A DNA stretch of 64,000 bases, taken from positions 2,202,466 to 2,266,465 of the forward strand of contig BPGV01000001.1 of the NCBI GenBank assembly GCA_026003215.1, in the 5' to 3' direction. A model generated the notes under the pieces. It saw only the letters and a program-made list of their open reading frames with translations, was not told where the DNA came from and searched no databases. Every line of letters begins with the position of its first letter. Position 1 is the first letter of the stretch. Of this stretch, positions 23,371 to 64,000 are shown in pieces. The position numbers and the translations under genes were made by a program. The DNA comes from Bacteroidia bacterium (GTDB taxonomy: Bacteria; Bacteroidota; Bacteroidia; SpSt-205).

Positions 23371-24592
23371 AGTTGCGGTAATATATGGTTTCTCCTTTCT
23401 CCGGGATGTCTTCTGCGAGCGAGAGTAGAAACTCAGCCAGGTTTTCGGCGTTTCTGGCGGCTTCTTCTTGGAAAAAGTCTGATGGCAGCTGAAGTACTTC
23501 TTGAACGATTACCAAAGGAGTATGCGCTTGAAAATATACGCTACCCTCGGACTGGATCTCGTAAAGGAAAGAGGTAGGATGTTCCTCTTCTCTGTATCCA
23601 AACACTACCTCTAACAAGCGCTGGAGTGAAATAATCCCCGCCACAGAACCAAACTCATCCACCACAATAGCTACATGCTGGCGCTGGTTTTTGAGTTCTA
23701 TCAAAAGCTCGTAGGCATTTTTATTTTCCGGCACAAAATAGGCGGGCCTGATAAGCGCCTGCCAGTTTGAAACTTCTTCTTTTGGCCAGTGCGGCAAGAT
23801 ATCCTTTACCATTAATATGCCTCGTATATCGTCTAAACTTTCTTGATAGATAGGGATGCGTATGTATGGAAGCGAGCTTAGGGTAGCTTTGAGCTCTTGC
23901 CAAGAAAGTGATATCGGGATAGCCTTCATGTCCATGCGAGATATCATAAAAGACTTTATCGGCAAGCGGCGTAAGAGAAGGAGATTCTTAAGAACTTTCT
24001 TTTCAATAGGAGGGGATAGCTCTGTGGGAAGGAGTTCTACGAGGTCGGAGAGGCTTTCTGGGGAAGAGGTGGGCTTCCAGTAGCGTTCTATCTGGTGGCG
24101 GAGTGTAGTCAGTTTTTGCGTAAGAGGATATACCAGCCAAAAAATGAGCTGCACAAGCGGAGTTCCCCAGCGAAGAAATACCCTCGGCCGCGTGAGGGCC
24201 AGCGTTTTAGGGAGGATCTCTCCTAATAGTACAATAATTGCCAACGCCATGAGCGCAGATAGCCCCTCGCCATAAGGAAGCCCCCACGCTTGGGCCGTAT
24301 AAAAGAGGAGGAGGGTAAGGCCGAGATTGGCTAAAGTATTGCCTACAAGGAGCACACTCAGGAGCACCTCGGGCTGCTCTGCAAAGTATCTGACCCAATA
24401 GGCCCATGGGCGGTGCTTGTAGGAGCTGAGAAGCTTATGTATGTCTCCTCCACTTAGGCTAAAAAAGGCCGTCTCGTATCCCGAGAAAGTGGCTGAGAGT
24501 AAAAGGAAAGCGACTGTGCCTACAAGGGGTACTGGGTCCAACGCAGGACAAAGGTAAGAAGATTCCGAAAGAGTGGTCCCTGCAACCGCCAA
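23255..24592 (-). CDS. gldE: CNNM/HlyC-CorC family membrane protein (DUF21 + CBS pair + CorC_HlyC), candidate gliding-motility GldE
   Basis: Four N-terminal TM helices, tandem CBS-like regions, and a C-terminal transporter-associated domain. It is 445 aa and followed by a lipoprotein, as expected for GldE. Confidence 0.65.
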   Translation of the reverse strand: MAVAGTTLSESSYLCPALDPVPLVGTVAFLLLSATFSGYETAFFSLSGGDIHKLLSSYKHRPWAYWVRYFAEQPEVLLSVLLVGNTLANLGLTLLLFYTAQAWGLPYGEGLSALMALAIIVLLGEILPKTLALTRPRVFLRWGTPLVQLIFWLVYPLTQKLTTLRHQIERYWKPTSSPESLSDLVELLPTELSPPIEKKVLKNLLLLRRLPIKSFMISRMDMKAIPISLSWQELKATLSSLPYIRIPIYQESLDDIRGILMVKDILPHWPKEEVSNWQALIRPAYFVPENKNAYELLIELKNQRQHVAIVVDEFGSVAGIISLQRLLEVVFGYREEEHPTSFLYEIQSEGSVYFQAHTPLVIVQEVLQLPSDFFQEEAARNAENLAEFLLSLAEDIPEKGETIYYRNYAFEVVDRSPHRIERIRAYRLPESAVSSPQDLPQAPAT

Positions 24593-41030: not shown

Positions 41031-41118
41031 GCGCTGGCACCCCGTATGGGGCCGGGCGGGCCGCAGGCCCGGCCGGCCCAGCGGCGGCCGCTGCCGCAGG
41101 CAGCGGCCGCCGCTCCCT
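41015..41118. repeat. GC-rich triple-hairpin element, copy 1 (paralogous to 45786-45886)
   Basis: Three consecutive perfect palindromes: ggtgccagcgcc-gtag-gcgctggcacc, gggccgggcgggcc-gcag-gcccggccggccc and gcggcggccgctgcc-gca-ggcagcggccgccgc. It overlaps the stop codon of the FG-GAP gene. Confidence 0.65.
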
Positions 41119-41153
41119 TAGTTCTTTGTAAGAAACTTTTCTTTAACTTCGCT

Positions 41154-41513
41154 ATGATGCGCACTCTACCCTTTCTCTTCGTAGCTTGCTTTGTAAATGT
41201 CGGATGGGCCCAGCAATCGGCCGTTCCCCCGGCCGAGAAACTTGCCCATTATGAAGTCGTAGCTATCTGCCAGGACTGTAAGCCGGGGGCACCCGTAGAG
41301 CCGTACTTTGCGCAGGTACGGCAGCGTATGCTCCAGAAGGTGGGCATTTATGCGGTGCAGCTGGTGCGGGCAGAGGGGGACCAGCTAACCTTCCGCATCA
41401 GCGTAGCGCCAGACTTTCCTCAGGCCGACCTGTACGAAGTGTGCCGTTGGACCGGCTTAGCCGTACGAAGCCTCCTCCCTGCCCCACCCGAAAAACCTAC
41501 TAAAACCGAATAA
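41154..41513 (+). CDS. Small secreted protein (hypothetical, 119 aa)
   Basis: Signal peptide MMRTLPFLFVACFVNVGWAQ, with ATG at 41154. The longer track ORF starting at 41046 begins inside the hairpin repeat and is an artefact. Confidence 0.35.
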   Translation: MMRTLPFLFVACFVNVGWAQQSAVPPAEKLAHYEVVAICQDCKPGAPVEPYFAQVRQRMLQKVGIYAVQLVRAEGDQLTFRISVAPDFPQADLYEVCRWTGLAVRSLLPAPPEKPTKTE

Positions 41514-41516
41514 CCT

Positions 41517-44500
41517 ATGCGTCTCGTAGGCATATATGGGCTTGCTTCGCTTCTATGGGCACAGACTATCTTAGTGAACGGTACAGGTGCGGGTTCCTTT
41601 GAAGGGGGCACGGGTTGTACTGGTAACTCTTATACTGTGGATGGCTGGACCATCGTTAATGGCACGCAGACCAACCGCTGGGCTGTCAATACCGGCGCTG
41701 GGGCCCAGCATGGCAGCCGGGCTATCTATATCACGAATAACTGTGGCGCTACCCCCCCCTCCTAATTCGTATACTATAACTTCTTCCTCCGTTGTACATT
41801 TTTATCGGGATGTGGCGCTGCCAGCAGGAGAGCCTTACATGACTATTTCGTTTTATGTAAAGGTCGAGGGAGAAGGCACTACTACTCAGTATGATTATTT
41901 GGATGTTTTGGTGGCCCCGACGAGTGTAACGCCTGCGGCAGGTACTGAGGTGAGTAGCACCTATCGGCTGGCGCGGTATAACCTACTGGGGAGTAGTTGG
42001 GTGCAGCGGACAGTGCGCTTTTGTGGGACAGGAGGGCAGACCTACCGGGTGATATTTTCTTGGCGGAATGATGCATCGGCGGGCACGCAGCCGCCCGCTG
42101 CCGTAGATCAAGTGCATATCACCAGTTCGGCTACGCCGCCTCCTACGCCCTGGATTGTGAATGTTTCTGCCCTCCCCTACAGCCACGGCGCTGATAATAC
42201 CTGTGGGAAAGGGAATAACCTCACCAGCAGCAATGTGTCTCCTACTTGCGGGAGTACTTCCTATTATGGTGGGGAGGATATGGTATGGGTTTTCACGCCG
42301 AACAGCTCTGGTATGGTTACGATTACGCTGAATGCTTCTACTACCTATACGGGTCTTAAGTTGTATCAGGGGGGGACGCTCAATCCGTGTGGCGGGCTCA
42401 CGGGGGCCACCTGCGTAGGCGAGGCAAACTCGGGGTCGAGCACCGCCAGTAACCTTACCCTCACTGCCTGTGTTCAGCCCGGGCAGACCTACTACCTGCA
42501 AGTAGATTATTGGCCTTCTCCTACGTGCGGTGCGATTACGAATCTCACTATTTCGGCGCCAACGCCCCTGGAGCCTGTACAGGCTTGGGTACGGGCGTGA
42601 CGACCGTCACCGCGCTTCCCTACAATAGCGGAGCCGGCACTACGTGTGGCGCTGTGGATGACATCACCTCCAGTAACGCGTGGAGCTGTGGGAGTAGCAG
42701 CTACTTTACCGGGGAGGATAGGGTATGGGTCTTCACGCCTACCACCTCGGGCGCCGTAACGATTACCCTGACCCACAGTAATGCCAGCTCGCCCTGGTTT
42801 GGTCTGAAGGTGTATGAGGGCTGCCCGCGTACTTCCAGTTGCGGGGTATGTGTAGGCTCTTGTGAAAGTAGTAGTGGGCCTTATTCCTTTAATGTAAATG
42901 TCACAGCGGGGAAGACCTATTATGTGGTATTGGATCATTATGCCTCGCCTGCTTGCGCTTCGTATGACAATCTGTCCATCTCTGCCCCAGTGAGTGGGGG
43001 AGGCGGAGCCTGTGGGTCGCCGGTCCTCTCCAGCTTTCCGGTGATTACGACGGGCACGACTGCTGGGGCGCCGCCGTTGGGGGTCTCGCCGAGTTGTGCC
43101 GTAGGGGGTAGCTGTGGAGGGGGTGGCGCTGTCGGACGGTGGTATCAGTTTATCCCTACGGCTTCCAATATGACTATTCATGTAGCGCCGGGCACCCTTA
43201 CCGACCCCGCCGTGGTTGTATTCAGCGCGCCTTCGTGTGGTGGGCCTTTCACAGAGATAGCCTGTCAGCAGGATGGTAGCAACACGGGGAATGACTGTGA
43301 GAGTTTTCCCTACTATGCCCATTTAGACCTTACCGGGCTTACCGTGGGGCAGACCTACTACATAGCAGTTTTTGGGGCGTCAGGCAGTGGGGATTATACC
43401 TTGGCGATATGGGAGACGGCCGCGCAGCCTCCTTCGCAGTTTGGGCAGGACTGTAACGCGATATCGGGCAACCCCGCCACCGGTCCGCTCCCCGTATGTA
43501 GTTCTACCTTTTCGGTGGGTGCACCGGGTTTTTTGGGGTCTGGTTTTACCTGTGACCTGCCGTATCCTGCCTCAGGTTGTCCAGGAAGTTGCCTGACCAG
43601 TGGAGAACGGAATATTGTTTGGCTCCGCCTCCCGATTGCCAGTAGTGGTAACCTCTCCTTTGCCATCACCCCCGCTCAAAATGTAGACTACGACTGGACC
43701 TTGTACCGTATAGATAATGTGTCTAACCCCTGCCAAGCTATACGTAATGGCACATTGCAGCCTGTAAGGTGTAGTTATGATGCGCCTACCTCGTGCGATG
43801 GCACCTATGGTACAGGGGTAGCGTGTGGTACGCCGGGGTGTGCTTCCGGCACCTGTGAAGGATCAAGCGGGCAAGGGTGGCTGCAGTGCCTACCCGTAAA
43901 TGCCGGCGAGGTGTATCTTTTAGGGATTTCTAACTTTAGCACGAGTACCTTTCCCGGGTTTAGTGTAGATTTTGGGACATCGCCGATTGATTATGGAGCG
44001 GCGAGTGCAGGACCGGCGGTGTGGACGGGCGGCGGCGGCACCACCGCCTGGAATAACAACGCCAACTGGGGTGGGTGCGCCTTTCCAGATAACTGTGCCA
44101 AGGATGTGGTAATCTACGGCGGCGCCGCTAACCAGCCGGTGATTGCTGCTGCAGAGACCTGGACGGTACAAAATATCACCATTCCTGCTGGGGCTAAGCT
44201 CACCGTCAATGGCACCCTCAACGTCTGCGGTCACCTCACCGTAAATGGGGAGCTGGACGGCACCGGCTGGATTGTGTTTGTTGGGGGGGCTGCTTACCCG
44301 GTGCAGGAGATACGCGGCGTGCTCACAGGGCCTACCCAATACATCCCCAACCTGCGCATAAACCGTGCTGCCGCCGGGACGGTGCGCCTCATGACCAACG
44401 TCCAAGTGCGTGGCCATGTGCAAATAGACAATAGCGCCAATAACACCCTGAACCTCAACAGCTATACCTTATTCGTAGGGGGGAACTTCGTAAATGTGGG

Positions 44501-45782
44501 GGCAGCTGGGACCTTTACCCATGGCAATGGTAGGGTTGTCTTCAACGGCACTGGCCCACAGACCTATACCGACCCCGGCATAGACCCCTTCTATACCGTA
44601 GAGATGAACCAAAATCCCCCCTCCACCCTCACACTCAATAATCGCATGGACATCACGAATCAGCTTACGCTCACTTCGGGGGTGATTGTTACGGGCACAA
44701 ATGAGGTTCGGGTAACCAATACCGCCACTACGGCTGTGACCCCCGGCAACACCAATAGCTATGTGCGAGGATACCTTCGGCGGTATATTGGAGGTATGGG
44801 CGGGTATGACTTTCCGGTGGGTACTGCCTCGTACCAGCGGGCAAATGTGAACTTCACTGCGGCACCGGGGGTACATAACCTCTTAGCGTGGTTCAACGAT
44901 TGGGCTCCTTCTCCGCCGACCCCGCCTAATCCCACTGCGGAGTGCGGCGCTCAATACCACGCTTGTCCCATGCTGAATAACGGCTACTGGACTATCAATG
45001 CCTATAATAGCAGCTTTGCGCAGGTGACTTCCAGTGGTACTTACACGATGACGCTCTACAATACGGCCTATACGGCGTGTGCGGGAGCTGTACAATTCGG
45101 GGTATTGAAGAATACGGGCGCTGGGTGGTTCATTCAAAACCCGGGCTGTTATGCCAATGCCAGTGCAGCGACGGTTCAGCGGCCGGGCATGAGCGGCTTC
45201 TCTAACTTTGGTACGGGACAAAGCCTCACCCCTCTGCCGGTGTATCTCACCCGCTGGGAAGGGGAGGTTCGGCCGGATGAGTCGCACCTGCTGCGGTGGG
45301 ATGTGGTGGCGGAGGAGACGCGGGTTTCTCGCTTTGTGGTAGAGACAGGCGCTGCGCCGGAGGCACTCTCTCCATGGCGTACCTTCGGCCCCGAAGTACG
45401 GCAAGCTGTGCGGGAAAATCCGCCGTTTGGCAGCTCCTTCTATCGGCTGCGTATTTACACGGTGGAAGGGGCCGAGTTTGCGAGTTCGGTGATAGAGCTG
45501 CAGCGGGGAGTGGGGAGTATCAATCCCTTGCAAAGTCTGGAAGCCTTCCCGAATCCTACGACGGGAGAACTTACGGTGCGCTTTATGGTAGGTGAGCTGA
45601 CTCCGGTGCATTTGTCGCTGGTGAATGCGCTGGGGCAGCGCGTATGGGAAAAGGTAGTGGAGCCTGCGGCTAAGGGATGGGTGGAGGTGCCGGTGGATAT
45701 GCGGGCTTTGCCGGTGGGGCCGTATCTATTGCGGGTAGAGGGCGAAGGGGTAGTGCGGACGCGGGTGGTAGTGCGTGAGTGA
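41517..45782 (+). pseudogene. Giant T9SS-secreted adhesin-like protein split into three frames (41517-41765, 41587-42600, 42510-45782). Domains: Cys-rich domains, PPC-like, right-handed beta-helix, type-A CTD
   Basis: Signal peptide at 41517. The first frame change is exactly at a C8 tract (41752-41759), where C7 would give a continuous reading. A second frame change lies between 42556 and 42600, near a cccc run. Two tandem ~130-aa Cys-containing domains (ALPY..TCG..GED.VWVFTP..VTITL..GLK.Y.G..YY..NL.ISAP) bridge the breaks in the correct order. The CTD is ...HLSLVNALGQRVWEK...YLLRVEGEGVVRTRVVV. Confidence 0.6.
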
Positions 45783-45785
45783 GTA

Positions 45786-45886
45786 GGGGCGCCAGCGCCT
45801 GCGGCGCTGGCGCCCCGTATGGGGCCGGGCGGGCCTGCGGCCCGCCCGGCCCCGCGGCGGCCGCTGCCACAGGCAGCGGCCGCCGC
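45786..45886. repeat. GC-rich triple-hairpin element, copy 2 (about 90% identical to copy 1)
   Basis: ggggcgccagcgcc-tgc-ggcgctggcgcccc, ggggccgggcgggcc-tgc-ggcccgcccggcccc and gcggcggccgctgcc-aca-ggcagcggccgccgc. It lies immediately after the stop of the giant T9SS gene. Confidence 0.65.
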
Positions 45887-45891
45887 CCCCT

Positions 45892-50026: not shown

Positions 50027-53000
50027 ATGGGCCGACTTTTGCTAAGGCTGCTATGGATAGGCGGGCTACTCGCACAAGAATGCGATATCATTTATGTCAC
50101 CCCGAATGGTGCCACCGGGCCTGGCGCCGGGACCCGCGATAATCCCGCCGAGCTCAACTATGCTATTGCTAACCTCCTCACGCCTACTATCCGCCGCATC
50201 TACCTGGGCTATGGGATTTACACCTTGACGCAGCCCCTCCCCCTCCATAACGGTCTACAACTGGAAGGGGGCTTTGACCCCAGCCAAGCCTGGGTAAAAA
50301 CCAACCTTTACCCTACTATCCTCTTCCGAGCAGCAGTGAATCCCCAGTCTAACCCCAGCCGGCTCGTGGCTATAGAGGGTATAAATGTGAACGGCTTCCG
50401 CATACAAGACCTGGAGGTGTATGTGGAGGATGCGACGGCCTTGGGGGCAGGTACTACTACCTATGCCCTCTATTTGAATGGGTGCAGCAACTATGTGGTG
50501 AATCGCTGTCGGTTTTCGGCGGGGGCGGGGGCGAATGGCGACCCTGGTCAAAATGGCGCTGCAGGCCGCAATGGGGCGGCTGGACAGATAGGCCAGCAAG
50601 GGGATGAAGATGCCGGCTGCTGCCGAGCCGGGGGCGCAGGCGGCAATAGCTGGTCGGGCGGTCTCGTAGCCGGCGGCCGCGGCGGCGACGGCGGCCAACG
50701 TGGCACCTGTGGCCCTGGTGGCCAAGCTTATAATGGCGCGCCGGGCCAACAAGGTATCCCTCCCTCTCCCCAGCCGTATGCACCCGCAGGCGGCGCCGGA
50801 GGGGCTGGCGGCGTAGGAAATAGCTCTATCATTTCTTTGGGGTGTGACAACTTCGCTGCTCAGAATGGCGCCGATGGACAGCCTGGCCAAGATGGAACCA
50901 ATGGCGCTGCTGGGGGGCCCGGTACGCCTACCCATGCCGGCGGCTTCTTTCGCCCAGGCGATGGGCAGGACGGCCAAGATGGCCAGCATGGCTCCGGCGG
51001 CGGGGGCGGCGGTGGTGGCGGTAGCCAAGGTAATCTGCTATGTTTTCCGTCTAATCTTAACGGGACAGGTGCCGGCGGCGGCGGCGGTGGAGAAGGCGGC
51101 GAAGGGGGCAAAGGCGGCAAAGGCGGCGGGGGCGGCGGCGGCTCCTTCGGCATCTACCTCTGGAATAACGGCGCTAATGCCCTCTTTGTGGATGTAATAG
51201 CCGCATCCAGCTTGCCGGGAGCCGGCGCCCCAGGAGGATTTGGCGGCATCGGCGGCATAGGGGGCAGTGGCGGCTGCGGTGGCGCTCGCGGCTGCGCCGG
51301 CCAGCCTAACGCTTGCGATATTGGCTATGGCGGTAACGGCGGCCGTGGGGGCAACGGGGGGAACGGCGGCAACGGCGGCCCAGGCGTCGCCGGCCTCGCC
51401 CAAGACGTCTATATCTCTGCGGGTAGCACAGCGCCTACCCTCTCGTCCTTCCGCAGTCCCGACGAACCTAAAATCTTTGTGCGTTACACTGGCTGCACCG
51501 AGCGTACCGTGAAACTTTGGACCGATGCGGCGGGCTACATCGTCTGGTTCTTCGGGCCAGGGAGTACCCCCCCTACAGCTATCGGCGATACCGTCACTAC
51601 CCGCTATACGACCCTCGGCCGTAAAAGCCTTTCCCTCATCGTCAATGGCCAGACCTACACCTATTACGAGTTTTTGGACATTCGGGATGATGGGACGGGT
51701 ACTAATCCTACCTTCACGCAAAGTGCCGATACGGTATGCTTAGGCGGGCAAGTCACCTTCACCAGCAGCTTAGCTGGTGCCGCTAACTACCTCTGGGACT
51801 TCGGCGGAGGCGCCCCGCCTGTCTCTGGCCCCCTCAATAACATAGCCCAGCCGACCTTCAATACCCCAGGTACTTTTGTGGTGACCCACCAGACCTATTC
51901 GCCCTGCTGCGGCTGGTCTGACCCCTACCAGGATACCATAGTGGTTTTGCCCACGCCCGCTCCTACGCTGACTATACAAACCTCTACGGGTTCTACGGAA
52001 ACGTGCGAGGGTACGCCTGTTATCTTTACCGCTCAGCTCCAAAACTTTGCGCCCAATCCGACCATCACTTGGCAGGTGAATGGTACCCCCCGCAGGCACG
52101 GGCCAGACCTTTATCCTCACCAATCCCCAGCCGGGCGACCAAGTGCAAGCCATCGCCATCGGCAATACCGCCTGTTCCCGAGGACAGCCCATTTCGTCTA
52201 ATACGATCACCCTTACTGTCCATCCCCGTCCTGTTATTCAGCCGCTGGCAGTGGGCTGCTTCCAAATCACAGGGAACCTTGTGCCCGGAGACCTGATTAC
52301 GCTCTCGGCTTCGGTCTCGGGCGGGAGCGTGCCCTATCAGTTTTATTGGGACTTAGGGGATGGGCGCGGCGCTACAGGCAATCCCGCTACCGTCATGTAT
52401 CCTACTGCGGGTACTTACCGCTTGCGGCTTACAGTAGTAGATGCCAACGGCTGTACCAGCAGTAATACCGCTGCTTGCGAGACTACCTTGGTGATTGCTT
52501 ATCGGCCGGTGGCGGCCTTCTCGGCCACGCCTCTCCAGGGCTGCCCACCCCTCACGGTCTCCTTCACGAACCAGAGCATCTACGCAAACGCTTACCTCTG
52601 GGACTTTGGCGATGGCTCTCCCACTACCACTCAGCTTAACCCCATGCATACTTACACTACCTCAGGCGAATACACGGTTACTTTATACGCCATCTCGGCA
52701 GGAAACAACGATACGGCCACCGTGCAAAATCAAGTGGTGGTCTATCCCGTACCGGTGGCAGATTTCTCGGTATTCCCGCCCGTACTTTATGAAGCCGATA
52801 CTGCCTATTTTGTCTCTCAGGCGCAAGGGGCAAGTAGCTGGCTGTGGTTCTTTGGCGACCCTGCTAACCCTAACGCCTCGTCCACCGACCCGAACCCCTC
52901 GTACTTTTACGCACAACCGGGCAGCTATACGGTCACCCTCATCGTAACCAACCTCTACGGCTGTAAAGATACTTTGGTCAAGACGGATGCCGTTATAAAA

Positions 53001-53258
53001 CTCCCCAATCCAGCGCCTACGGCTTTGGGTACGTTCCCCCGAGAAGCCGTGCAGGTGTGGCCTAATCCCTTCACAGACAAGCTCTATGTGCGCTTACCGG
53101 AGGAAGCCTCTCTCGTGATGTACGATGCGCATGGGGTCTTGATATGGGAAGGGCAGTTGTCCCGGGGCATGCAGGCTTTGTCTTTCATGCAGCTGCCGAC
53201 GGGATTATACTTTTTACGGATAGGCCCTTGGACAATCAAAGTACATAAACTCGGCTAA
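50027..53258 (+). pseudogene. Giant Gly-rich/collagen-like PKD-domain T9SS cargo protein, split at a C6 tract (fragments 50027-52201 and 52080-53258)
   Basis: Signal peptide, an N-terminal domain paralogous to the 53263 gene, and collagen-like GXY runs (GDPGQNGAAGRNGAAGQIGQQG). It also has poly-Gly, PKD-like WDFGGG/WDFGDGS units and a C-terminal CTD. The frame switches at the cccccc run 52086-52091, where C5 would read ...VNGTPAGTGQTFILT continuously. Confidence 0.6.
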
Positions 53259-53262
53259 TCTT

Positions 53263-56200
53263 ATGGCAAAAATATACGCTTTCTGGCTGGCTTCGTTATA
53301 TGTATATGGCCAGGCCTGTGGCTATTTGTATGTGTCTCCCATGGGTACAGCCACGGCTGCGGGTACGCCGGCGGATCCGCTTTCGCTGTCCGCGGCCATA
53401 GCCCAGGCAGCTGCAGGTCCGATAAAGCACATTCGGCTGGCGATAGGGGATTATCCGCTGACTGCGCCGCTCTCCTTGGAGGATAACCTTATTTTAGAGG
53501 GGGGCTTTGACCTAAGCAATCCCGCCCAACCGGTCAAGCGCAGTGGGGGCATCACGCGCCTACGTAGGCTCAGTGGTACGCCGGAGCCTAACCCCTGCCG
53601 CCTTGTAGCCGTTCAAGCTGTCAGCAAGACTGGCTTTGAGCTCCATGACCTCTATATAGAGGTAGAAAATGCCAGCTCGACGGCGGATGGGCCCAGCTGC
53701 TCTACCTATGGCTTGTACTTGAATGGCTGCGCTAACTATCAGATTGTGCGGTGTCGGATTCATGCGGGGAATGCTACGGATGGAAAGCCCGGCGATCCTG
53801 TGCCTAATGGCCGCGATGGGGCTCCCGGCACCAAGGGTGAAGATGGCTGCCGTCAGTGCCAGCCTGGGGTAGATGATCCCAATAACGACGGGGGGGGAGG
53901 CGGCAGTAGCTGGTCAGGGGGCGCCCAAGCGGGGGGTAATGGCGGTAATGGTGCTCCCATTGGTACAGGACGCGGTCCTGCTGGGTGTTTTGACCTTAAC
54001 TTTTGTAACGGCGCTTCAGCTCCTAATGGGCAGCCCGGCCAAAACGGTGCTACCACTGTCATGGGGCAGCCCGTAGGACTGGGCGGCGGGTCGGGTCAAG
54101 GCCAAAATATCTGTGCTAACTTCACTGATGCAGCGGGCTTTATCGGAGCCTTAGGGGGATGTCCGTCGGATGATCCGTTGCGCGGGGGCCAGCCTGGCAC
54201 GGATGGGGCTAATGGCCGGGACGGAGCGGATGGTCAGCCCGGTAGCCCCGCTTTTACAGGAGGGTGGTTTATCCCTGGGAATGGGCAGGATGGCCAGCCT
54301 GGGGAGCATGGCGCGGGTGGAGGTGGGGGGGGGGGGGAGGGGGTGCGCTCGGCGGAATCCCTTATGATATTGCCTGCTTTCGCATAGACGATGGCTACAC
54401 GAATAGTTCCGGTGGGGGCGGTGGTGGGGGTGGGGAAGGTGGGGAAGGTGGCCCTGGGGGCAAAGGCGGCGGTGGGGGCGGTGGGGCTTTTGCGCTCTTC
54501 CTCTGGAATAACGGCGCAAATGGGGTCATCCGAGACTGTCCCCTCACGGTGGGCCAGCCCGGCCAAGGGGCCCCCGGCTCGCCGGGGGGTTTAGGCGGAC
54601 AAGGAGGGGCCGGCGGCTGCGGTGGTGGATGGATTGGCTCACCTTGTACCCGCTTCTGTGGCTCGCCGCCCCTTCCCAACAATAGCTGTGGGGCCGGCTG
54701 CCAAGGGGGATGGGGCGGCAACGGCGGAAAAGGCGGCAACGGCGGCAAAGGCGGAAAAGGCGGCGATGGCGCTGCAGGTATTGCTCAGCCCTTCTATCAA
54801 AACCTTGCCGGCCAACCCCCTACCCAAACCAACAGCTTCGTTCCCACCGAAACGCCTATTGCCGTGTCGGGCCTCGTCTGTACCCACTCGGAGGTCACCT
54901 TCACTGTGGAGAATGCCGACCCTCTCACTCAATATGAGTGGGGCTTCGGCGCTAATGCGCAGCCCATCTTCGGCTATGGTCCTACCGCTACTACGGCTTT
55001 TACTTCGGCCGGCTTTCATACTATCCTGCTGCGCGTGAATGCCGTGCCCTTCCGATACACCCTTTTTGCCTCCCCGCTCCAACCGGGGGTTATTCCCGAT
55101 ATTCAACCAGTGGGCAGTCTTCCCGTGTGTTTAGGCGCTACTGCTACCTTCCAAGCTAACCTCACCAATCCCGCCAACCGCTCCATTCTGGAATACCACT
55201 GGCAGCTTACAGGCCCTGTCTCGGATAATGTTTCATCGGCGACGGCTTCCACTTATACTACGCCCGCTTTGACCCAAACAGGTACTTATACCCTGTACTT
55301 GCGGGTACGCTCCGAGTGCTGCGGGTGGTCCTTACGCGATTCGCTCACTTTTCAGGTAGTGCCTTCGCAGACGATGACGGCGCAGCTTATCGCCGCGCCG
55401 CCTGCCGTATGTGCAGGCGAGCCTATCACCCTTACGGTAGTAGGCGGAAACCTTGGCGCTACGCCTACCTTCGTATGGCGTAAAAACGGCAGTCCCATTG
55501 CAGGCGCACCTAATGCCCCCACTTACACCGACCCTGCCCCCCAAAACGGCGATGTATATGAAGTCCAGGTCACTTCCAGCCTGGCCTGTATCAGCAATAA
55601 CCCCCTCACTACTAACACGGTTACGGTGGTAGTGCATCCTCGTCCGCAGCTCGCTTGCACCTCGCCCCTGAGTGGGTATTTGGGGGCACCCGTAACCTTT
55701 ACTATTGATGCTTCCAATGCTGGGCAGCTCCAAGGGCCTTTCTCTTACCAGATTGATTTAGGTAATGGCTTTTCGGTGACAGGTCAGTCGGCTACTTTGC
55801 CCGCCTCAGCTGCGGCTTCGTACGGAGGCGCAGGAACTTATACGGCTACTATTACCATGACCGACGCCAATGGCTGCTCGGCCTCTTGCCAGGTCACGGT
55901 GAATATCTCTGCGGCCCCGCCTCCTACGGCAGACTTTACTGCTGACAGGCAGGAGGGCTGTGACCAGCTCACGGTTACCTTCACCGCTACCCCCCCAGCA
56001 GACGAATACCGATGGGATTTTGGCGATGGCACCCCACCCCTTACCACTACCCAAAATCCCGTCCAGCATACTTACGCCCAGGTAGGCTTCTACACCGTGC
56101 GGCTGGAAGCCCGCTTCGGAGCTACCTGGGTCCCCGTGGAAAAGGTGCATTATATCCGAGTGTATCGTACCCCTTCCCCCCAGATTGGCGTGCTAAGCGC

Positions 56201-57185
56201 TATTTGTGAAAACCAGCCCGTGCAGTTTGGCGATATCGGTTCGGATGGATATAGCTGGCTGTGGGACTTTGGAGATGGAACCACCAGTACAGCCCCGGGC
56301 CCCCAGCATGTGTATGCTACCTCGGGTACCTATACCGTGACGCTTACTGCGTGGAGCCATAACCGCGTGTGTTCTACCACTGTGCAGACGCAGGTAGTAG
56401 TAGCTCGCCAGCCCCAAGCCAGTTTCAACCTCTCTCCTACGGAGGGGTGTCCTCCCTTTACGGTCACGCCGGAAAATACGTCTAATCCCTCGGGTGCGCC
56501 GGGCGTGTATTATATCTGGGTCTGGGGTGATGGCAGCCGGGATACGGTTTCTGCGCTTACGGCGCCCAGTCATACCTATACGCAGAGTGGTACCTTTACG
56601 CTGCAGCTGGTAGCGGTAAGCTCGGAAGGCTGCCGCGATACGGCGCAGGCGCAGGTGGTGGTACGTCCTCGGCCGCAGGCGGCTTTCTCGCCGCAGCAGG
56701 TGACCCAAACCCAGCCCAATACGCAAGTCTCCTTTACCAACCAATCCCAAGGCGCTGCCTCGTACTTGTGGGACTTTGGGAATGGCCAGACTACCACCGA
56801 AGCCCAGCCGGGGCCGGTGGATTTCCCCAATCCAGGCACTTATACGGTGCTGCTTATTGCCTACTCGGCCCAAGGTTGCCCTGACACGGCCCGAGGTATC
56901 GTCGTCATAGAGCCCGGCCTGGATATCTTCATCCCGAATATCTTTACCCCTAACGGCGATGGTATCAACGATGTATGGCAGATTCGTGCCACCCTATCCT
57001 ATCAAGTATGGGTGTATGACCGCTGGGGCAACTTAGTCTTTGAGGGGGATAATACCCGGCTCTGGGATGGGCGCAAGCGCGGCGGAGGCGACTGCCCGGA
57101 GGGCGCCTATACCTACAAGCTTATTGCCAGGCTGCCGAACGGCCAGACCTTTACCCGTTCGGGTACCGTAACCCTTCTCCGCTGA
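53263..57185 (+). pseudogene. Giant Gly-rich/collagen-like PKD-domain protein with a T9SS type-B (CHU_C-like) sorting domain, split at a G13 tract (fragments 53263-54387 and 54264-57185)
   Basis: Paralogous N-terminal domain (YLNGCANYQIVRCRIHAGNA versus YLNGCSNYVVNRCRFSAGAG in the upstream gene), GXY collagen-like triplets and multiple PKD-like WDFGDGT units. The C-terminus FIPNIFTPNGDGINDVWQI...YDRWGNLVFEG is the type-B sorting domain. The reading frame changes exactly at the 13-G run 54325-54337. Confidence 0.6.
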
Positions 57186-57682: not shown

Positions 57683-58867
57683 ATGACCAATAGGGTACAA
57701 ATTTTGGTTTTGAGACTTGCTCTGGTACTAAGTAATCTTTTGGCGCAGAATGTAGGTATCGGCACGAGCACACCTGTTTCCCGGTTGCATGTAGCAGGAA
57801 CGAATGCTACCCTTACCGTAGGCCCCTTTGGTATAGGCCAGAGTGAGGGGCGGATCGTAGCCACAGGAAGTGCAGCAGAGATTTCATTTGTGAGGAGAAC
57901 TCTTACCACTTGGCCTACTTCCCCTCAGCCTGGAGATAGATTCGCTTGGCATAATCCTGACGGTACTGCTCGCCTGTGGTCCAATGCCGACTTGGTATGG
58001 GTAACTGCGGGGGGTTATGTGGGCATAGGGACTTCGCCTGGGGTGCCGTTGCACGTGCGGAAGGATGCACCTGCTTCTCAGCCTACCGCAGCTTTCTTGA
58101 ATGCGAGCGGCGTAGGAGTATACATAGGCCACATAAGTGGCACAGGTACCTATGGCTCTGTACAAGGTAGGAATGGCGGTTCCTCCGCAAACCTTATTCT
58201 CCAAGAAAATGGAGGGCTTGTAGGCATAGGAATCAATACCCCCCAAGTAAAGCTCCATGTTGTAGATGTGATTGAGGCTTCCGCACCTGACTATAATCAA
58301 AAATCGGCTTCTATTACTGGAGACGGATCCGTGGAGCTTCTGCGTAACCCAAACTCGGGTGCATTGCCTTGTACTGGTGTATGGGGTTATATTGATTTTA
58401 AGAACCTTCGTTCAGATGACCATGATGGGCGTATCCTATATGGGGATGGCCCCTGTTCCCCGAGCACTCCTCCGACAGAGGGTTTTTACTTTCTGAGAGG
58501 GCTAAATGGGCAATCCTCCATAGGGACCTACACCAGCACAGGCTGGGGACATTCCTCGGATGGTCGTCTTAAGACAGATGTACATCCCCTCTCTGGCGCC
58601 TTAGAGCGGGTTATGCGTTTGCGTCCTGTGTATTTCCGGTGGAAAAATGAACCTCATCAACGACAAGTGGGATTTATTGCGCAAGAGGTAGCCGACGTTT
58701 TTCCGGAGGTAGTTTCGCAGGTGGAGGATACCTATGTGCTCTACCACGGAAGCTTGACAGCGCCATTAGCGGGCGCCATTCAGGAGCTATATCAGATTAT
58801 CGAAGCCCAGCGTGAGGAGATCCGGCAACTCAAAGCGCGCATAGAAGCTTTGGAGCGGAGTAGATAA
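57683..58867 (+). CDS. Tail-fibre-like secreted protein with a C-terminal peptidase-S74 intramolecular chaperone domain
   Basis: Signal peptide, then repeated (N/Y/L)VGIGT..P...LHV motifs (x3+). The C-terminus SSDGRLKTDVHPLSGALERVMRLRPVYFRWK...VGFIAQEVADVFPEVV is followed by a coiled coil, which is the endosialidase-chaperone (S74) signature. Confidence 0.6.
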   Translation: MTNRVQILVLRLALVLSNLLAQNVGIGTSTPVSRLHVAGTNATLTVGPFGIGQSEGRIVATGSAAEISFVRRTLTTWPTSPQPGDRFAWHNPDGTARLWSNADLVWVTAGGYVGIGTSPGVPLHVRKDAPASQPTAAFLNASGVGVYIGHISGTGTYGSVQGRNGGSSANLILQENGGLVGIGINTPQVKLHVVDVIEASAPDYNQKSASITGDGSVELLRNPNSGALPCTGVWGYIDFKNLRSDDHDGRILYGDGPCSPSTPPTEGFYFLRGLNGQSSIGTYTSTGWGHSSDGRLKTDVHPLSGALERVMRLRPVYFRWKNEPHQRQVGFIAQEVADVFPEVVSQVEDTYVLYHGSLTAPLAGAIQELYQIIEAQREEIRQLKARIEALERSR

Positions 58868-61296: not shown

Positions 61297-62565
61297 TTAT
61301 AGGTAAGCTTTTCGTAGGTAGGGTTGTAAGACTTCGGGCACGCGAATGCGTCCATCGGGCAGTTGATGGGTTTCTAAAATAGCCGCGACGATGCGCGGCA
61401 GCGCCAGCGCACTCCCATTGAGGGTATGCACCAGCTCGGTACTTTTACCTTTGCGGTAGCGAAGTTTCATGCGGTTAGACTGGAAAGTCTCAAAGTTGCT
61501 GATAGAACTCACTTCCAGCCAGCGCTGCTGGGCAGGACTCCACACCTCCACATCATACGTCTTGGCCGAAGCAAAACTCATATCCCCCCCACATAAAAGC
61601 ACCGTCCTAAAGCTAAGCTCTAACTTTTCCACCAGCCCTTGTACGTAGTGACGCATTTCTTCCAGCACGGTGTACGAATCTTCGGGCTTGACTATTTGCA
61701 CAATCTCCACTTTGTCAAACTGATGCAGGCGGTTGAGCCCCCGCACGTCCTTCCCATACGAACCCGCTTCGCGCCGAAAACACGGCGAGTACCCGCAAAT
61801 CTTTATAGGGAGTTGGCTTTCTTCCAGGATCTCCCCGCGGAAGTAGTTGGTAAGGGGCACTTCGGCGGTGGGGATAAGGTAAAGTTCGTCTAAGGGGATG
61901 TAATACATCTGGGCGTCCTTGTCGGGGAGCTGTCCTGTGCCAAAAGCAGTATCGGTATTCACCAGGAAGGGGGCCTCCATCTCTATGTAGCCGGCTTTTT
62001 CGGCTTCCTCCAAGAAAAACTGAATGAGGGCGCGTTGGAGCTTCGCGCCATCGCCTACATAAAAGGGAAAGCCCGACCCCGTGACCTTAGCGCCCCGTTC
62101 AAAGTCGATAAGTCTGCGCTTTTCGGCCAGCTCCCAGTGAGGCAGGCGCCCATCGGGTGGCAAAGGCGGACGGTCATTTTGATAAACGACTACATTATCT
62201 GCTGCTGAACGCCCCTCTGGTACTGAGGGATGGGGTGGATTAGGCAGGCGTATGAGAATCTCTTCCAGTTTAGCTTCGGCATCCTTGAGCTTTTGTTCGG
62301 TGGATTGGAGCTCTTCTTTGAGGGCAGCGCTTTGGGCTTTGAGGGCTTCGGCTGGGTGGGGGTTTTGGGTACGCATGGCTTCGCCGATAGCGCGGGCAAG
62401 CTGGTTGAGTTGGGCGCGGGTGTTGTCTATGGCTTTTTGCAGGCGGCGCCGCTCCTCATCGTAAAATAATACCTGCTGCACCAGCGGGCCCGCATCCATG
62501 CCTTTCTTGGCTAAAGCCGCGATAACCTCCTCCGGTGCTTCCCGCAAGCGAGGCAACGGTATCAT
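61297..62565 (-). CDS. serS: Serine--tRNA ligase
   Basis: N-terminal coiled-coil arm, class II motifs (FRREAGSYGKDVRGLNRLHQFDKVE, GSALALPRIVAAILE). Start set at MIPLPRLRE, with ATG at 62563-62565 on the complement strand. The track ORF carries 22 extra codons. Confidence 0.88.
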   Translation of the reverse strand: MIPLPRLREAPEEVIAALAKKGMDAGPLVQQVLFYDEERRRLQKAIDNTRAQLNQLARAIGEAMRTQNPHPAEALKAQSAALKEELQSTEQKLKDAEAKLEEILIRLPNPPHPSVPEGRSAADNVVVYQNDRPPLPPDGRLPHWELAEKRRLIDFERGAKVTGSGFPFYVGDGAKLQRALIQFFLEEAEKAGYIEMEAPFLVNTDTAFGTGQLPDKDAQMYYIPLDELYLIPTAEVPLTNYFRGEILEESQLPIKICGYSPCFRREAGSYGKDVRGLNRLHQFDKVEIVQIVKPEDSYTVLEEMRHYVQGLVEKLELSFRTVLLCGGDMSFASAKTYDVEVWSPAQQRWLEVSSISNFETFQSNRMKLRYRKGKSTELVHTLNGSALALPRIVAAILETHQLPDGRIRVPEVLQPYLRKAYL

Positions 62566-62623
62566 GGGCTGCAAAGTTAGCGCCGGGGCCCGCACCCTTG
62601 GAGAGAAGGTGTATTTTTGCTTT

Positions 62624-64000
62624 ATGGCCAAAAGTGGGTGGGTAATAGGGGGCCTTATAAGCTTCTTCGGGCTCTGGGCGCAGGAGGTTTTTTATGGGGA
62701 TTTGCGGTTTCGGGTGGCGCCGCCGGCCCGTACCTTAGCCGCTCAAGTAGAGTGGCACTTCCAAAACTTCCAGGGGCAGGAGATGGCCTGGGACTTGGGG
62801 CCCGGCTTAGAGATAGATACGCTGGCCGCCTCCGTGGGAGTAGATACCTTTTGGCGAGATACCGCCGCCCGCAAGGTATATGTGCGCTTCTCGGTGCCTT
62901 TGCAAGGCGAGCCGGCCTGGATACGCGTGACCTACCACGGAGAGCCGCGCAGCTCCGGCTTCGGTTCCTACGAAGTACAGAAACACGCCACAGGCTGGTG
63001 CCTCTGGACCCTCTCGCAACCTTATGGCGCGCCCGATTGGCTCTTTTGCCGAGATGGCCTCTCCGACAAAGTAGATTCTTTAGACATCCTTGTCAGCACG
63101 CCAGCGGAGTTATTGGGAGTAGCTAACGGCCGACTAATACAAGACAGCATAGACGTACAGGGGTGGCGCCATAGGAGCTTCCGACATCGGTACCCTATCG
63201 CGGTGTATCTTATTGCTTTTGCTGCTTCTAACTACGTAGTGCAGGAGTTTCCCGTGCAGACGCCTTATCATACTTTTACCCTGCGAAACTATGTTTTTCC
63301 ACAAGATACGGCCGCTGCTCGGCAGCTTTCGCAGCAGTTTATTCCGTACATATCTTGGTTAGAAGAACGCATAGGGCCTTATCCGTTTGCCTCGGAGGAT
63401 TATCAGCAGGTTCAGATAGGCTGGGGGGGCGGGATGGAACACCAGACGGTGACTTTTTTTTGGGCGTTATACGCTGGAGCTGTGGGCGCATGAACTGGCC
63501 CATCAGTGGTTTGGCGACTGGGTCACCTGTGGGAGCTGGCACGATATCTGGCTCAATGAATCTTTTGCGACTTACTTAGGGGCACTGGCTTACGAAGCCG
63601 TAGCTCCACAATGGTGGCCGGTGTGGCGTAAAGGAGCTATTCTGCGCGCTTGGCAAGACACTCTCCACACCATATGGGTCGACGACACCTCCGATTTCCG
63701 TCGTATCTTTCTATACGAGACCACTTACCTGAAAGGCGCGTTGGCCCTGTATACCCTGAGGCTGTATGTAGGCGATTCGCTCTTTTGGGGAGCCTTGCGT
63801 AGGTATTTGGACACCTATGCCCGTGGGTTTGCAAAAACTGGAGATTTTATCACAGCCACGGCCCCTATTTTGTCAGAAAGAATAGCTCAAAGCTTTGTAG
63901 AGAGCTGGATATATACGCCGCATTTTCCTCGCCTACGCATTACATGGATAGACGGTAAGAGCGCACAAGTAGAAAGCTTTACAGCTTATCCTATGCGAGT
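62624..64000 (+). pseudogene. M1-family aminopeptidase (aminopeptidase N-like), partial at the window end and frameshifted at a T8 tract
   Basis: Signal peptide MAKSGWVIGGLISFFGLWAQ. The GAMEN-like GGMEHQT motif is in one frame, and the zinc motif HELAHQWFGDW...WLNESFATY is in the +1 frame. The junction is the ttttttttt run 63454-63461, where T7 would read ...VTFFGRYTLELWAHELAHQWFG. Confidence 0.65.

What the first reader, a model, noticed from the sequence alone, without database searches (positions are those of the whole stretch)
54325..54337. 13-G homopolymer exactly at the frame break of a giant type-B T9SS collagen-like surface protein gene
The N-terminal 374-codon frame and the C-terminal 973-codon frame of one obviously contiguous protein meet at a G13 run that also encodes poly-Gly. 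The protein carries a paralogous N-domain, GXY repeats, PKD units and a CHU_C sorting domain. Gaining or losing a single G switches the 1,300-aa protein on or off. This is the classical slipped-strand phase-variation architecture, here in a gliding/T9SS cargo protein of a Bacteroidota genome, where poly-G switches are not commonly described. The alternative is a homopolymer sequencing error.
Basis: partly seen in the sequence, partly recalled or inferred. Interest (0 to 1): 0.7.

Follow-up and report, generated by a model that had tools for sequence, protein, structure and literature searches.

The report
Out-of-frame poly-G tract in secreted adhesin gene
A run of 13 G's splits a 1,306-residue secreted surface-protein gene of an uncultured hot-spring bacterium, whereas a near-identical strain has 11 G's and an intact gene, so this is probably a real slippage-type on/off allele, although a PacBio homopolymer miscall is not excluded.

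Summary
G13 lies at 54325-54337 and is the longest homopolymer in the window; the next longest is 8. It sits exactly where a 374-codon and a 973-codon frame of one gene meet. G11 or G14 gives a single ORF; G12 does not.

The protein has a signal peptide, a predicted pectate-lyase-like beta-helix, an ordered glycine-rich region, Ig-like and five PKD domains, and a type-B T9SS sorting domain. It is not collagen-like.

The window matches MAG KatS3mg025, which was built from PacBio HiFi reads with metaFlye and never polished with short reads. A sister strain seen in at least three other datasets differs by 1 SNP in 7 kb, carries G11 and has an intact 1,306-aa gene. About 40 orthologues all encode exactly Gly9 here, with mixed GGN codons. 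So G11 is the conserved "on" length and the long tract is specific to this species.

A k-mer assembly from what appears to be the same sample also gives G13, so it is not a polishing artefact. Four more homopolymer frame breaks occur in the window, all in T9SS cargo genes and none in housekeeping genes.

My reading is a genuine slipped-strand loss-of-function allele (about 0.5). A HiFi length miscall is about 0.3, and an evolved phase-variation system about 0.15. Reversible switching is untested.

The parts
54325..54337 (+). G13 homopolymer; out-of-frame length of the tract that encodes a conserved Gly9 segment (in-frame lengths are G11 and G14)
   Evidence: G11 in L002/L003/L017/L019
53263..57185 (+). 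Whole gene, frame-broken in this assembly. It encodes a T9SS type-B cargo protein of 1306 aa when the tract is G11.
   Evidence: intact 1306-aa ORF in L002, L003 and L015/16, and 1301-1304 aa in L023, L047, L049 and L053
53263..54387 (+). N-terminal frame (374 codons): signal peptide, predicted right-handed parallel beta-helix, first part of the glycine-rich region. Identical to GIV24298.1 (KatS3mg025_1957).
54264..57185 (+). C-terminal frame (973 codons from a GTG): rest of the glycine-rich region, Ig-like domains, five PKD domains, CHU_C
55644..56921 (+). PKD repeat region (five PKD_4/PKD stretches; boundaries approximate)
56928..57170 (+). CHU_C / TIGR04131 type-B T9SS C-terminal sorting domain
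50027..53258 (+). Upstream paralogue with a type-A Por_Secre_tail, also frame-broken in the window; one 1076-aa ORF in other assemblies
52086..52091 (+). C6 run that breaks the paralogue (C5 is in frame). The Logan DRR290133 contigs end at 52090 and start at 52087, which is the signature of a C5/C6 bubble in the reads.
41752..41759 (+). C8 run, the first break in the cargo gene 41517-45782. The Logan DRR290133 contig has C7, which is in frame.
42565..42568 (+). C4 run, the second break in cargo gene 41517-45782. C5 in L018 gives one 1421-aa ORF. The Logan DRR290133 contig L022 also has C4.
63454..63461 (+). T8 run that breaks an M1 peptidase carrying a T9SS type-A tail, just before its HExxH motif. 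T7 is intact in L002 and L004. The Logan DRR290133 contig L060 also has T8.

Best explanation
G13 is a genuine out-of-frame allele of a species-specific, intrinsically hypermutable poly-G tract. The tract encodes a length-conserved Gly9 segment of a T9SS type-B surface protein. Its domains are a beta-helix, an ordered Gly-rich region, Ig/PKD repeats and CHU_C.

- **Shown:** the in-frame length is G11.
- **Inferred:** replication slippage added two G's in the Katase hot-spring lineage.
- **Follows from how T9SS cargo is sorted:** translation stops after 374 codons. The signal-peptide-bearing fragment lacks the C-terminal sorting domain, so the adhesin-like protein is not displayed.
- **Inferred, not shown:** a tract of 11-13 G's should slip back at high rates, so the locus can act as an on/off switch.

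It is one of at least four or five homopolymer frameshift alleles confined to T9SS cargo genes of this strain. That pattern looks like standing loss-of-function polymorphism in dispensable surface proteins. It does not look like a dedicated, regulated switch.
For: **The tract and its in-frame length**
- The tract sits exactly at the frame junction.
- G11 with an intact 1306-aa ORF occurs in L002, L003/L017 and L019. This is one strain seen in at least three datasets, 0 SNPs apart from each other.
- That strain differs from the window by one SNP (K495N) across the two paralogues.
- About 40 orthologues keep exactly x-Gly9-x, with 90 nt between the flanking motifs. This makes G11 the functional length.

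**G13 is not a polishing artefact**
- Logan contig L001, apparently from the same sample (DRR290133), is 100% identical over 8168 nt and includes G13.
- The C4 and T8 breaks are also the dominant k-mer path in that sample.
- The C5/C6 site shows both alleles.

**Breaks are confined to cargo genes**
- All five breaks lie in T9SS cargo genes. These hold about 15-20% of the homopolymer runs, so random placement has P about 1e-4 to 1e-3.
- Der, UvrA, GroEL, ICDH, TonB receptors, PPIases, GlyRS, SerRS and ThyA are intact despite A8 and G8 runs.
- Apart from the G-tract and the T8 run, the other ten runs of 7 or more bases in the region shared with L002, including the G8 at 53890 in the same gene, show no length difference.
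- The sister MAG KatS3mg026 from the same assembly has both genes intact.

**Other context**
- Over 47-64 kb the indel-to-SNP ratio against the sister strain is 4:32, which is ordinary for natural polymorphism.
- G tracts of 7 or more drive phase variation in C. jejuni. Replacing every third G locks them there, which is what the orthologues here look like (PMC8437040).
Against: - The source assembly is HiFi only and unpolished (PMC9671151). Sequel II CCS homopolymer lengths are reported as insertion-biased and worse with length (PMC11878640). Four of the five breaks are extra bases in the window.
- One break (C8) is contradicted by the DRR290133 k-mer contig, which has C7.
- L001 is not independent evidence if, as inferred, DRR290133 is the HiFi run itself.
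- G13 is two steps from G11, and no G12 or G10 allele was seen anywhere.
- Only two strains are informative.
- No read-level data were available, so neither heterogeneity nor reversibility at this tract has been shown.
Confidence: 0.5

Rival explanations
1. Sequencing artefact. The true tract is in frame: G11, as in the sister strain, or G14. PacBio Sequel II CCS reads mis-call the length of this long G run, so both metaFlye and the k-mer assembly inherit G13. On this reading the gene is intact and nothing switches.
For: - The assembly used HiFi reads only, with metaFlye 2.8.3 and no short-read polishing.
- CCS homopolymer calls are insertion-biased and worsen with length. The authors advise against PacBio for homopolymer length (PMC11878640).
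- The window has C8 where the DRR290133 k-mer contig has C7.
- Every other assembly of the species that spans the tract has G11.
- A 13-mer is far beyond the run lengths at which this assembly can be checked against other assemblies.
Against: - A majority +2 miscall is needed, or a -1 miscall from a non-conserved G14 (Gly10).
- Two different assemblers agree on G13.
- The companion breaks at C4, C6 and T8 are too short to be majority HiFi errors, and they are confined to cargo genes.
- The other runs of 7 or 8 bases agree with the other assemblies.
Confidence: 0.3
2. An evolved contingency locus. The G tract is maintained by selection as a fast, reversible switch. It would be part of a multi-gene phase-variable repertoire of T9SS cargo proteins that lets the population vary its surface, for example against phages or predators.
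For: - On and off alleles occur in near-identical strains, and the gene is otherwise undecayed.
- Several cargo genes in the same strain are switched off at homopolymers. At two C runs the DRR290133 contigs differ from the window or end at the run, which suggests both alleles are present in the sample.
- A sister species (MAG SKW77, L049) carries an in-frame G20 encoding a different conserved poly-Gly segment (K-Gly7-A) of the orthologue, plus a G10 in its paralogue. Six consecutive GGG codons are unlikely under the observed Gly codon usage, in which GGG is 22-32%.
Against: - The tract is absent from about 40 orthologues.
- G11 arises from only three consecutive GGG codons, which is expected by chance somewhere in this Gly-rich family.
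- The other breaks are at C4 to C8 and T8, too short for programmed switching.
- The G11 strain shows the same length in at least three datasets.
- No minor-allele data exist.
Confidence: 0.15
3. Recoding. The genomic G13 is real, but full-length protein is still made because RNA polymerase or the ribosome slips on the long G run. The frame break would then be only apparent.
For: Only general knowledge: homopolymer runs longer than the RNA-DNA hybrid can cause transcriptional slippage. Nothing in the tools speaks for it here.
Against: - From my own knowledge, characterised bacterial slippage sites are mostly A/T runs.
- The sister strain and all orthologues encode the protein in a single frame, so there is no conserved recoding signal.
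Confidence: 0.03

Closest known systems
Poly-G/C simple-sequence-repeat phase-variable genes of Campylobacter jejuni (e.g. cj1139 G8 on / G7 off, cj1426), and from my own knowledge those of Neisseria and Haemophilus
   Same: An intragenic G homopolymer of 7 or more bases whose length sets the reading frame of a surface-related gene. On and off alleles occur in near-identical genomes. Codon-interrupted versions, with every third G replaced, are stable, and that is what the orthologues here look like (PMC8437040).
   Different: Switching, mixed populations and reversibility are demonstrated there and not here. Those genomes hold 12-29 such tracts conserved across strains, whereas this tract is species-specific. 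Here the tract encodes a structurally conserved Gly9 segment, so in-frame length changes are probably constrained as well. The phylum and the secretion route (Bacteroidota, T9SS cargo) also differ.
T9SS type-B CTD cargo proteins (SprB-type cell-surface adhesins of Flavobacterium johnsoniae; TIGR04131 / PF13585)
   Same: Sec signal peptide, long repetitive Ig/PKD body, and a C-terminal CHU_C/TIGR04131 domain scoring above the curated cutoffs.
   Different: At 1306 aa it is far from 'giant' (from my own knowledge SprB is about 6,500 aa). It has an N-terminal pectate-lyase-like beta-helix plus a glycine-rich region. No PorP/SprF-type partner gene was found next to it among the ORFs I scanned.
Homopolymer indel errors in long-read assemblies
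   Same: The frame break sits at the longest homopolymer of a HiFi-only, unpolished MAG. One neighbouring run (C8 versus C7) disagrees with a k-mer assembly of what appears to be the same sample. JGI orthologue contigs L010-L012 each carry a 1-nt deletion at a different place; two of the three (G6 to G5 in L010, C3 to C2 in L012) are in identifiable short runs. These look like such errors.
   Different: Here the breaks are confined to T9SS cargo genes. Most are reproduced by the k-mer assembly. Some include runs of only 4-6 bases, where majority HiFi errors are not expected.
Right-handed parallel beta-helix adhesins and polysaccharide lyases (PfbA of S. pneumoniae, pectate lyase Pel9A, phage tailspikes)
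   Different: Identity is 8-18%. No catalytic residues were checked. The confident but secondary-structure-free Gly-rich region (residues about 170-500) has no identified counterpart.

Membership tests
SSR (homopolymeric-tract) phase-variable contingency locus | Homopolymer of about 7 or more bases inside the ORF (or promoter) | tested here: met
   G13 at 54325-54337; G11 in the sister strain
SSR (homopolymeric-tract) phase-variable contingency locus | Tract-length change toggles between a full-length and a truncated product, with the rest of the gene intact | tested here: met
   G11 gives 1306 aa and G14 gives 1307 aa; G12 and G13 stop at codons 367 and 374. Only one amino-acid difference from the on allele.
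SSR (homopolymeric-tract) phase-variable contingency locus | Different tract lengths among strains and within one population | tested here: inconclusive
   Two alleles in two strains: G13 in the Katase sample, and G11 in one strain seen in at least three datasets. No reads were available, so within-population mixture at this tract could not be assessed. A C5/C6 mixture is inferred only for the paralogue.
SSR (homopolymeric-tract) phase-variable contingency locus | High-frequency, reversible switching | not testable with these tools
   Needs culture or deep time-series read data.
SSR (homopolymeric-tract) phase-variable contingency locus | Tract maintained across related lineages, or over-represented relative to codon expectation | tested here: not met
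   About 40 orthologues encode the same Gly9 with mixed GGN codons and a longest G run of 5-8. One other species has a G20 at a different poly-Gly segment.
T9SS type-B cargo protein | C-terminal TIGR04131 / PF13585 (CHU_C) sorting domain above the curated cutoff | tested here: met
   TIGR04131 46.2 bits (cutoff 35); PF13585 60.6 bits (cutoff 27)
T9SS type-B cargo protein | N-terminal Sec signal peptide | tested here: inconclusive
   A hydrophobic N-terminus MAKIYAFWLASLYVYGQAC and a conserved 'AQxC' motif in the alignment consensus. No signal-peptide predictor was available.
T9SS type-B cargo protein | Cognate PorP/SprF-like outer-membrane partner encoded nearby (typical, not obligatory) | tested here: not met
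   No PorP/SprF Pfam hit among the roughly 27 window ORFs scanned. The downstream gene is DUF1801. Not every small ORF was scanned.
Bacterial collagen-like protein | Long uninterrupted (Gly-X-Y)n region / Pfam Collagen PF01391 | tested here: not met
   The longest strict GXY run is 7 triplets. No PF01391 hit at E <= 0.01. The model is a beta-helix plus Gly-rich coils.
Long-read homopolymer assembly error | Platform prone to homopolymer length errors, with no orthogonal polishing | tested here: met
   PacBio Sequel II HiFi with metaFlye 2.8.3 only; the insertion bias of CCS is documented
Long-read homopolymer assembly error | Length not reproduced by an independent assembly of the same reads | tested here: not met
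   Logan DRR290133 contig L001 also has G13. The feature is met for the C8 run, where Logan has C7.
Long-read homopolymer assembly error | Broken genes scattered over all gene classes in proportion to homopolymer content | tested here: not met
   All 5 breaks lie in T9SS cargo genes, which hold 15-20% of the runs. Housekeeping genes are intact.

The most novel reading that the evidence does not exclude
In this lineage of uncultured thermophilic Bacteroidia, T9SS cargo genes form a multi-locus set of surface proteins switched on and off by homopolymer length. Long G tracts would evolve repeatedly inside length-conserved poly-glycine segments: G11/G13 here, and G20 at another segment in a sister species. 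Natural hot-spring populations would then be mosaics of on and off cells. That would be a contingency-locus system in a phylum where phase variation is known mainly from DNA inversions.
Probability: 0.15. Interest if true: 0.65.

Novelty: new member of a known kind. Interest (0 to 1): 0.38.

Why it matters
If real, this would be one of the few documented cases of slipped-strand on/off variation in Bacteroidota, in a T9SS-secreted surface protein, seen directly in a natural hot-spring population. From my own knowledge, phase variation in this phylum is known mainly from invertible promoters. My two library searches found no paper describing simple-sequence-repeat switching of T9SS cargo.

The wider pattern may matter more. 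Every frame-broken gene in this 64 kb is T9SS cargo. That suggests surface and secreted proteins are the dispensable, fast-turnover part of the genome in the wild.

There is also a practical lesson. HiFi-only MAGs cannot settle the length of tracts this long. Pseudogene calls at such sites need orthogonal reads before they are annotated or interpreted.

Tried and rejected
1. **Metagenome pattern scan.** An exact-pattern scan of metagenome contigs for the tract flanks with a variable gap returned nothing. The collection evidently lacks these contigs, so no tract-length census was possible that way.

2. **Exact-protein look-ups.** Look-ups with window proteins 41046-41513 and 16902-17381 returned only DRR290133 contigs. 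There is therefore no cross-strain comparison for 1-40 kb. For that region I relied on ORF integrity and Pfam coverage.

3. **Contig ends near the tract.** L004-L006 end near the tract, which I first read as a sign of heterogeneity. I rejected this. The ends lie 70-140 nt downstream in the GGTGGGG-type low-complexity region, and L004 begins with 96 nt of unrelated sequence.

4. **Short N-terminal database proteins.** P0002 and P0003 (357-359 aa, from L010 and L011) looked like recurrent breaks at the tract. I rejected this too. Their breaks, and the one in the 699-aa P0001 (L012), are 1-nt deletions at other places. Their Gly9 region is in frame with mixed codons.

5. **'Collagen-like'** is rejected.

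6. **Three independent strains with G11** is rejected. L002, L017, L019, L018 and L006 are 0 SNPs apart, so they represent one strain.

7. **MAG coverage.** The read coverage of MAG mg025 could not be found in the paper or in the supplements held.
Full report
**1. The observation**

The run GGTGGAGGT-G13-AGGGGGTG occupies window 54325-54337. It is the only homopolymer longer than 8 bases in the 64 kb. A dinucleotide-preserving shuffle gave as many G11 matches in 2 of 100 trials.

The 374-codon ORF 53263-54387 and the 973-codon ORF 54264-57185 overlap across the run. Editing the run in silico gives these results:
- G14: one 1307-aa ORF.
- G11: one 1306-aa ORF.
- G12: stop at codon 367.
- G13: stop at codon 374.

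So the frame is restored by +1 or -2, not by -1.

**2. The gene**

The repaired protein has these parts:
- a hydrophobic N-terminus;
- no Pfam match for the first 600 residues or so;
- Ig-like matches;
- five PKD stretches (PF18911, E = 1e-56);
- a C-terminal CHU_C/TIGR04131 type-B T9SS sorting domain, above both curated cutoffs.

The glycine-rich region, about residues 170-500 and 36% Gly, is modelled confidently but has no DSSP secondary structure. The Gly9 segment has a pLDDT of about 88-95. The longest strict Gly-X-Y run is seven triplets and Pfam Collagen does not hit, so 'collagen-like' is not supported.

A profile search of the PDB matched only the Ig/PKD part, to the Aureispira grappling-hook protein GhpA.

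The upstream gene 50027-53258 is a paralogue with a type-A tail.

**3. Where the window comes from**

The 374-aa ORF is identical to GIV24298.1, KatS3mg025_1957. That protein lies on a 2.27-Mb contig of a Bacteroidia MAG.

The MAG comes from Katase hot-spring sediment (52 C). It was sequenced only with PacBio Sequel II HiFi reads and assembled with metaFlye 2.8.3, without short-read polishing (PMC9671151).

This matters because Sequel II CCS homopolymer lengths are reported to be insertion-biased and to get worse with run length (PMC11878640).

**4. The same locus elsewhere**

*The source sample.* Exact-protein look-ups returned Logan contigs of run DRR290133 that are 100% identical to the window over 8.2, 9.7 and 12.4 kb. 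I infer that this is the same sample. Contig L001 also has G13. G13 is therefore not a metaFlye polishing product. It is also not independent of the HiFi reads.

*A sister strain.* Contigs from JGI 3300045136, SRR35365466 and SRR30649429 carry G11 and one intact 1306-aa ORF. These contigs, and MAG GCA_026416395.1, are 0 SNPs apart from each other, so they represent one sister strain. That strain differs from the window by a single SNP (K495N) across both paralogues.

*Other species.* I collected about 40 orthologous loci at 70-89% identity from other hot-spring MAGs and metagenomes. Every one encodes x-Gly9-x, with exactly 90 nt between the flanking GxGQDG and GGIPYD motifs. All are in frame with mixed GGN codons and a longest G run of 5-8.

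From this I conclude that G11 is the conserved functional length and that the long homopolymer is specific to this species. G14 would add a tenth glycine that no relative has.

**5. Other frame breaks in the window**

The window has four more frame breaks, all at homopolymers and all in genes with T9SS tails.

| Site | Gene | Window | In-frame length seen elsewhere | Logan DRR290133 |
|---|---|---|---|---|
| 41752-41759 | cargo gene 41517-45782 | C8 | C7-equivalent (the gene is one 1421-aa ORF in L018) | C7 (L013) |
| 42565-42568 | cargo gene 41517-45782 | C4 | C5 in L018 | C4 (L022) |
| 52086-52091 | paralogue 50027-53258 | C6 | C5 in four assemblies | contigs end at 52090 and start at 52087 |
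| 63454-63461 | M1 peptidase, just before HExxH | T8 | T7 in L002 and L004 | T8 (L060, plus 6 SNPs) |

The 4-nt overlap of the two Logan contigs at the C6 run is the signature of a C5/C6 bubble in the reads. The six SNPs in L060 point to a second sub-strain in the sample.

Housekeeping genes tell a different story:
- Der, UvrA, GroEL, ICDH, TonB receptors, PPIases, GlyRS, SerRS and ThyA are full length, despite containing A8 and G8 runs.
- The Logan contig L014 is identical to the window over 12.4 kb.
- Apart from the G-tract and the T8 run, the other ten runs of 7 or more bases in the region shared with L002 show no length difference.
- The sister MAG KatS3mg026, from the same assembly, has both paralogues intact.

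Cargo genes hold only 15-20% of the homopolymer runs. Five random errors landing only there has P of about 1e-4 to 1e-3. One caveat applies: for 1-40 kb I have only ORF integrity to go on, with no second strain for comparison.

Across 47-64 kb the window differs from the sister strain by 32 SNPs and 4 indel events. That ratio is ordinary for natural variation in which frameshifts survive only in dispensable genes.

One indel goes the other way. The S74 tail-fibre-like gene 57683-58867 is intact here and frameshifted (T2 to T3) in most other assemblies.

**6. Interpretation**

Three of the five breaks are the dominant path in the sample's own k-mers: C4, T8 and G13. Majority HiFi errors are not expected at 4- to 8-mers. 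Taken together with the restriction to cargo genes, this makes me think the Katase lineage really does carry homopolymer frameshift alleles in several T9SS cargo genes. G13 would be one of them, produced by slippage at by far the most mutable site of its gene.

The consequence follows from how T9SS cargo is sorted. The 374-residue product keeps the signal peptide but lacks the C-terminal domain, so the protein is not displayed.

A run of 11-13 G's is within the range that switches rapidly in C. jejuni. In that organism, interrupting every third G locks the gene (PMC8437040). Reversion is therefore expected here, but it has not been shown.

I put this reading at about 0.5.

**7. Rival explanations**

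*HiFi length miscall, about 0.3.* This remains a serious possibility. The platform is insertion-biased at homopolymers. Four of the five breaks are extra bases. One (C8) disagrees with the DRR290133 k-mer contig. A 13-mer is beyond anything I could calibrate. Every assembly of the other strain that spans the tract has G11.

- In its favour: on and off alleles occur in near-identical strains. Both alleles are inferred at two C runs within the sample. MAG SKW77 (81% identical orthologue) has an in-frame G20 encoding a different conserved poly-Gly segment, plus a G10 in its paralogue.
- Against it: the tract is absent from about 40 orthologues. The G11 strain shows the same length in every dataset. 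The companion breaks lie at runs too short for programmed switching.

*Transcriptional or translational slippage rescuing the protein.* This has no support (0.03).

**8. What is known, and novelty**

The closest known kind is the intragenic poly-G/C contingency locus of Campylobacter, Neisseria and Haemophilus. Against its defining features:
- The tract and the frame toggle are met.
- Strain-level length variation is met only minimally, with two alleles.
- Within-population mixture and reversibility are untested.
- Tract conservation is not met.

Membership of the T9SS type-B cargo class is met on the sorting domain.

Two full-text searches found no paper describing simple-sequence-repeat switching of T9SS cargo in Bacteroidota. 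If real, this is a new member of a known kind in an unusual phylum and gene class. It is not a new mechanism.

**9. Dead ends**

- The pattern scan of metagenome contigs found nothing.
- Contig ends near the tract in L004-L006 lie in downstream low-complexity sequence and are not informative.
- The short N-terminal database proteins P0002 and P0003 are broken elsewhere by single-base deletions that look like long-read errors.
- The coverage of mg025 could not be found.

**10. Verdict**

- The phase-variation interpretation is partly supported.
- The most likely reading is a real slipped-strand off allele, within a wider pattern of loss-of-function polymorphism in T9SS cargo genes.
- A PacBio homopolymer miscall is a substantial unresolved alternative.
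- Read-level tract counts and PCR-free short reads from the same DNA would decide the matter.

Noticed in passing
window 57683-58867; L002-L006, L008, L009: The Peptidase_S74 (tail-fibre chaperone domain) gene is intact (394 aa) in the window, L001 and L007. A +1 T at 58014 (T2 to T3) breaks it in most other assemblies, where a 270-aa gene is called. The gene is absent from the 89%-identical species (L015/L016). It is a second variable surface-type gene right next to the finding.
   Followed up: partly
window 62498-64000 (T8 at 63454-63461): An M1-family peptidase with a T9SS type-A tail is frame-broken at a T8 run just before its HExxH motif. T7 leaves it intact in L002 and L004. The DRR290133 Logan contig L060 also has T8 and differs by 6 SNPs, which points to a second sub-strain in the sample.
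   Followed up: partly
window 41517-45782: A large T9SS type-A cargo gene with tandem repeated domains lies in three frames in the window (C8 at 41752, C4 at 42565). It is one 1421-aa ORF in GCA_026416395.1 (L018). The 40.0-42.5 kb region is SNP-dense between strains, while the flanks are nearly identical.
   Followed up: partly
L049 6186-6205 and 3543-3552 (MAG SKW77, JAOAHZ010000012.1): An in-frame G20 homopolymer encodes the conserved K-Gly7-A segment of the orthologue (a 1301-aa intact ORF). There is also a G10 in its paralogue. This is a second, independent long G tract in the same gene family, at a different poly-Gly segment.
   Followed up: partly
L053 8928-8961: Two G11 runs lie 12 nt apart in the intergenic region just downstream of the orthologue in MAG SKYB116.
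   Followed up: no
window 45786-45890; also about 41039-41120: There are clusters of GC-rich perfect palindromes (REP-like hairpins) in intergenic DNA after the cargo genes. The middle hairpin of about 31 nt (about 45828-45858) is missing from the DRR290133 Logan contig L022. The 41.0-41.1 kb copy differs by indels from L018.
   Followed up: no
L010 about 3645, L011 about 6943, L012 about 8085: Each of three JGI metagenome orthologues carries one 1-nt deletion at a different place in the gene; in L010 (G6 to G5) and L012 (C3 to C2) it falls in an identifiable short run. These look like long-read consensus errors, and they explain the 357-359-aa and 699-aa database 'proteins'.
   Followed up: partly
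window 22759-24592 (minus strand): gldD (PF25593, full-length match) and a CNNM/CorC gene lie next to each other. From my own knowledge this looks like the gldE-gldD pair. At least this part of the gliding/T9SS-associated machinery is therefore intact in the strain whose cargo genes are broken.
   Followed up: no
L004 1-96: The first 96 nt of the GCA_026416395.1 contig JAOAFG010000014.1 are unrelated to the locus. They join it inside the G-rich region about 90 nt downstream of the tract, and a sister contig (L018) stops 20 nt before the tract. The short-read assembly breaks or mis-joins at this G-rich stretch.
   Followed up: partly
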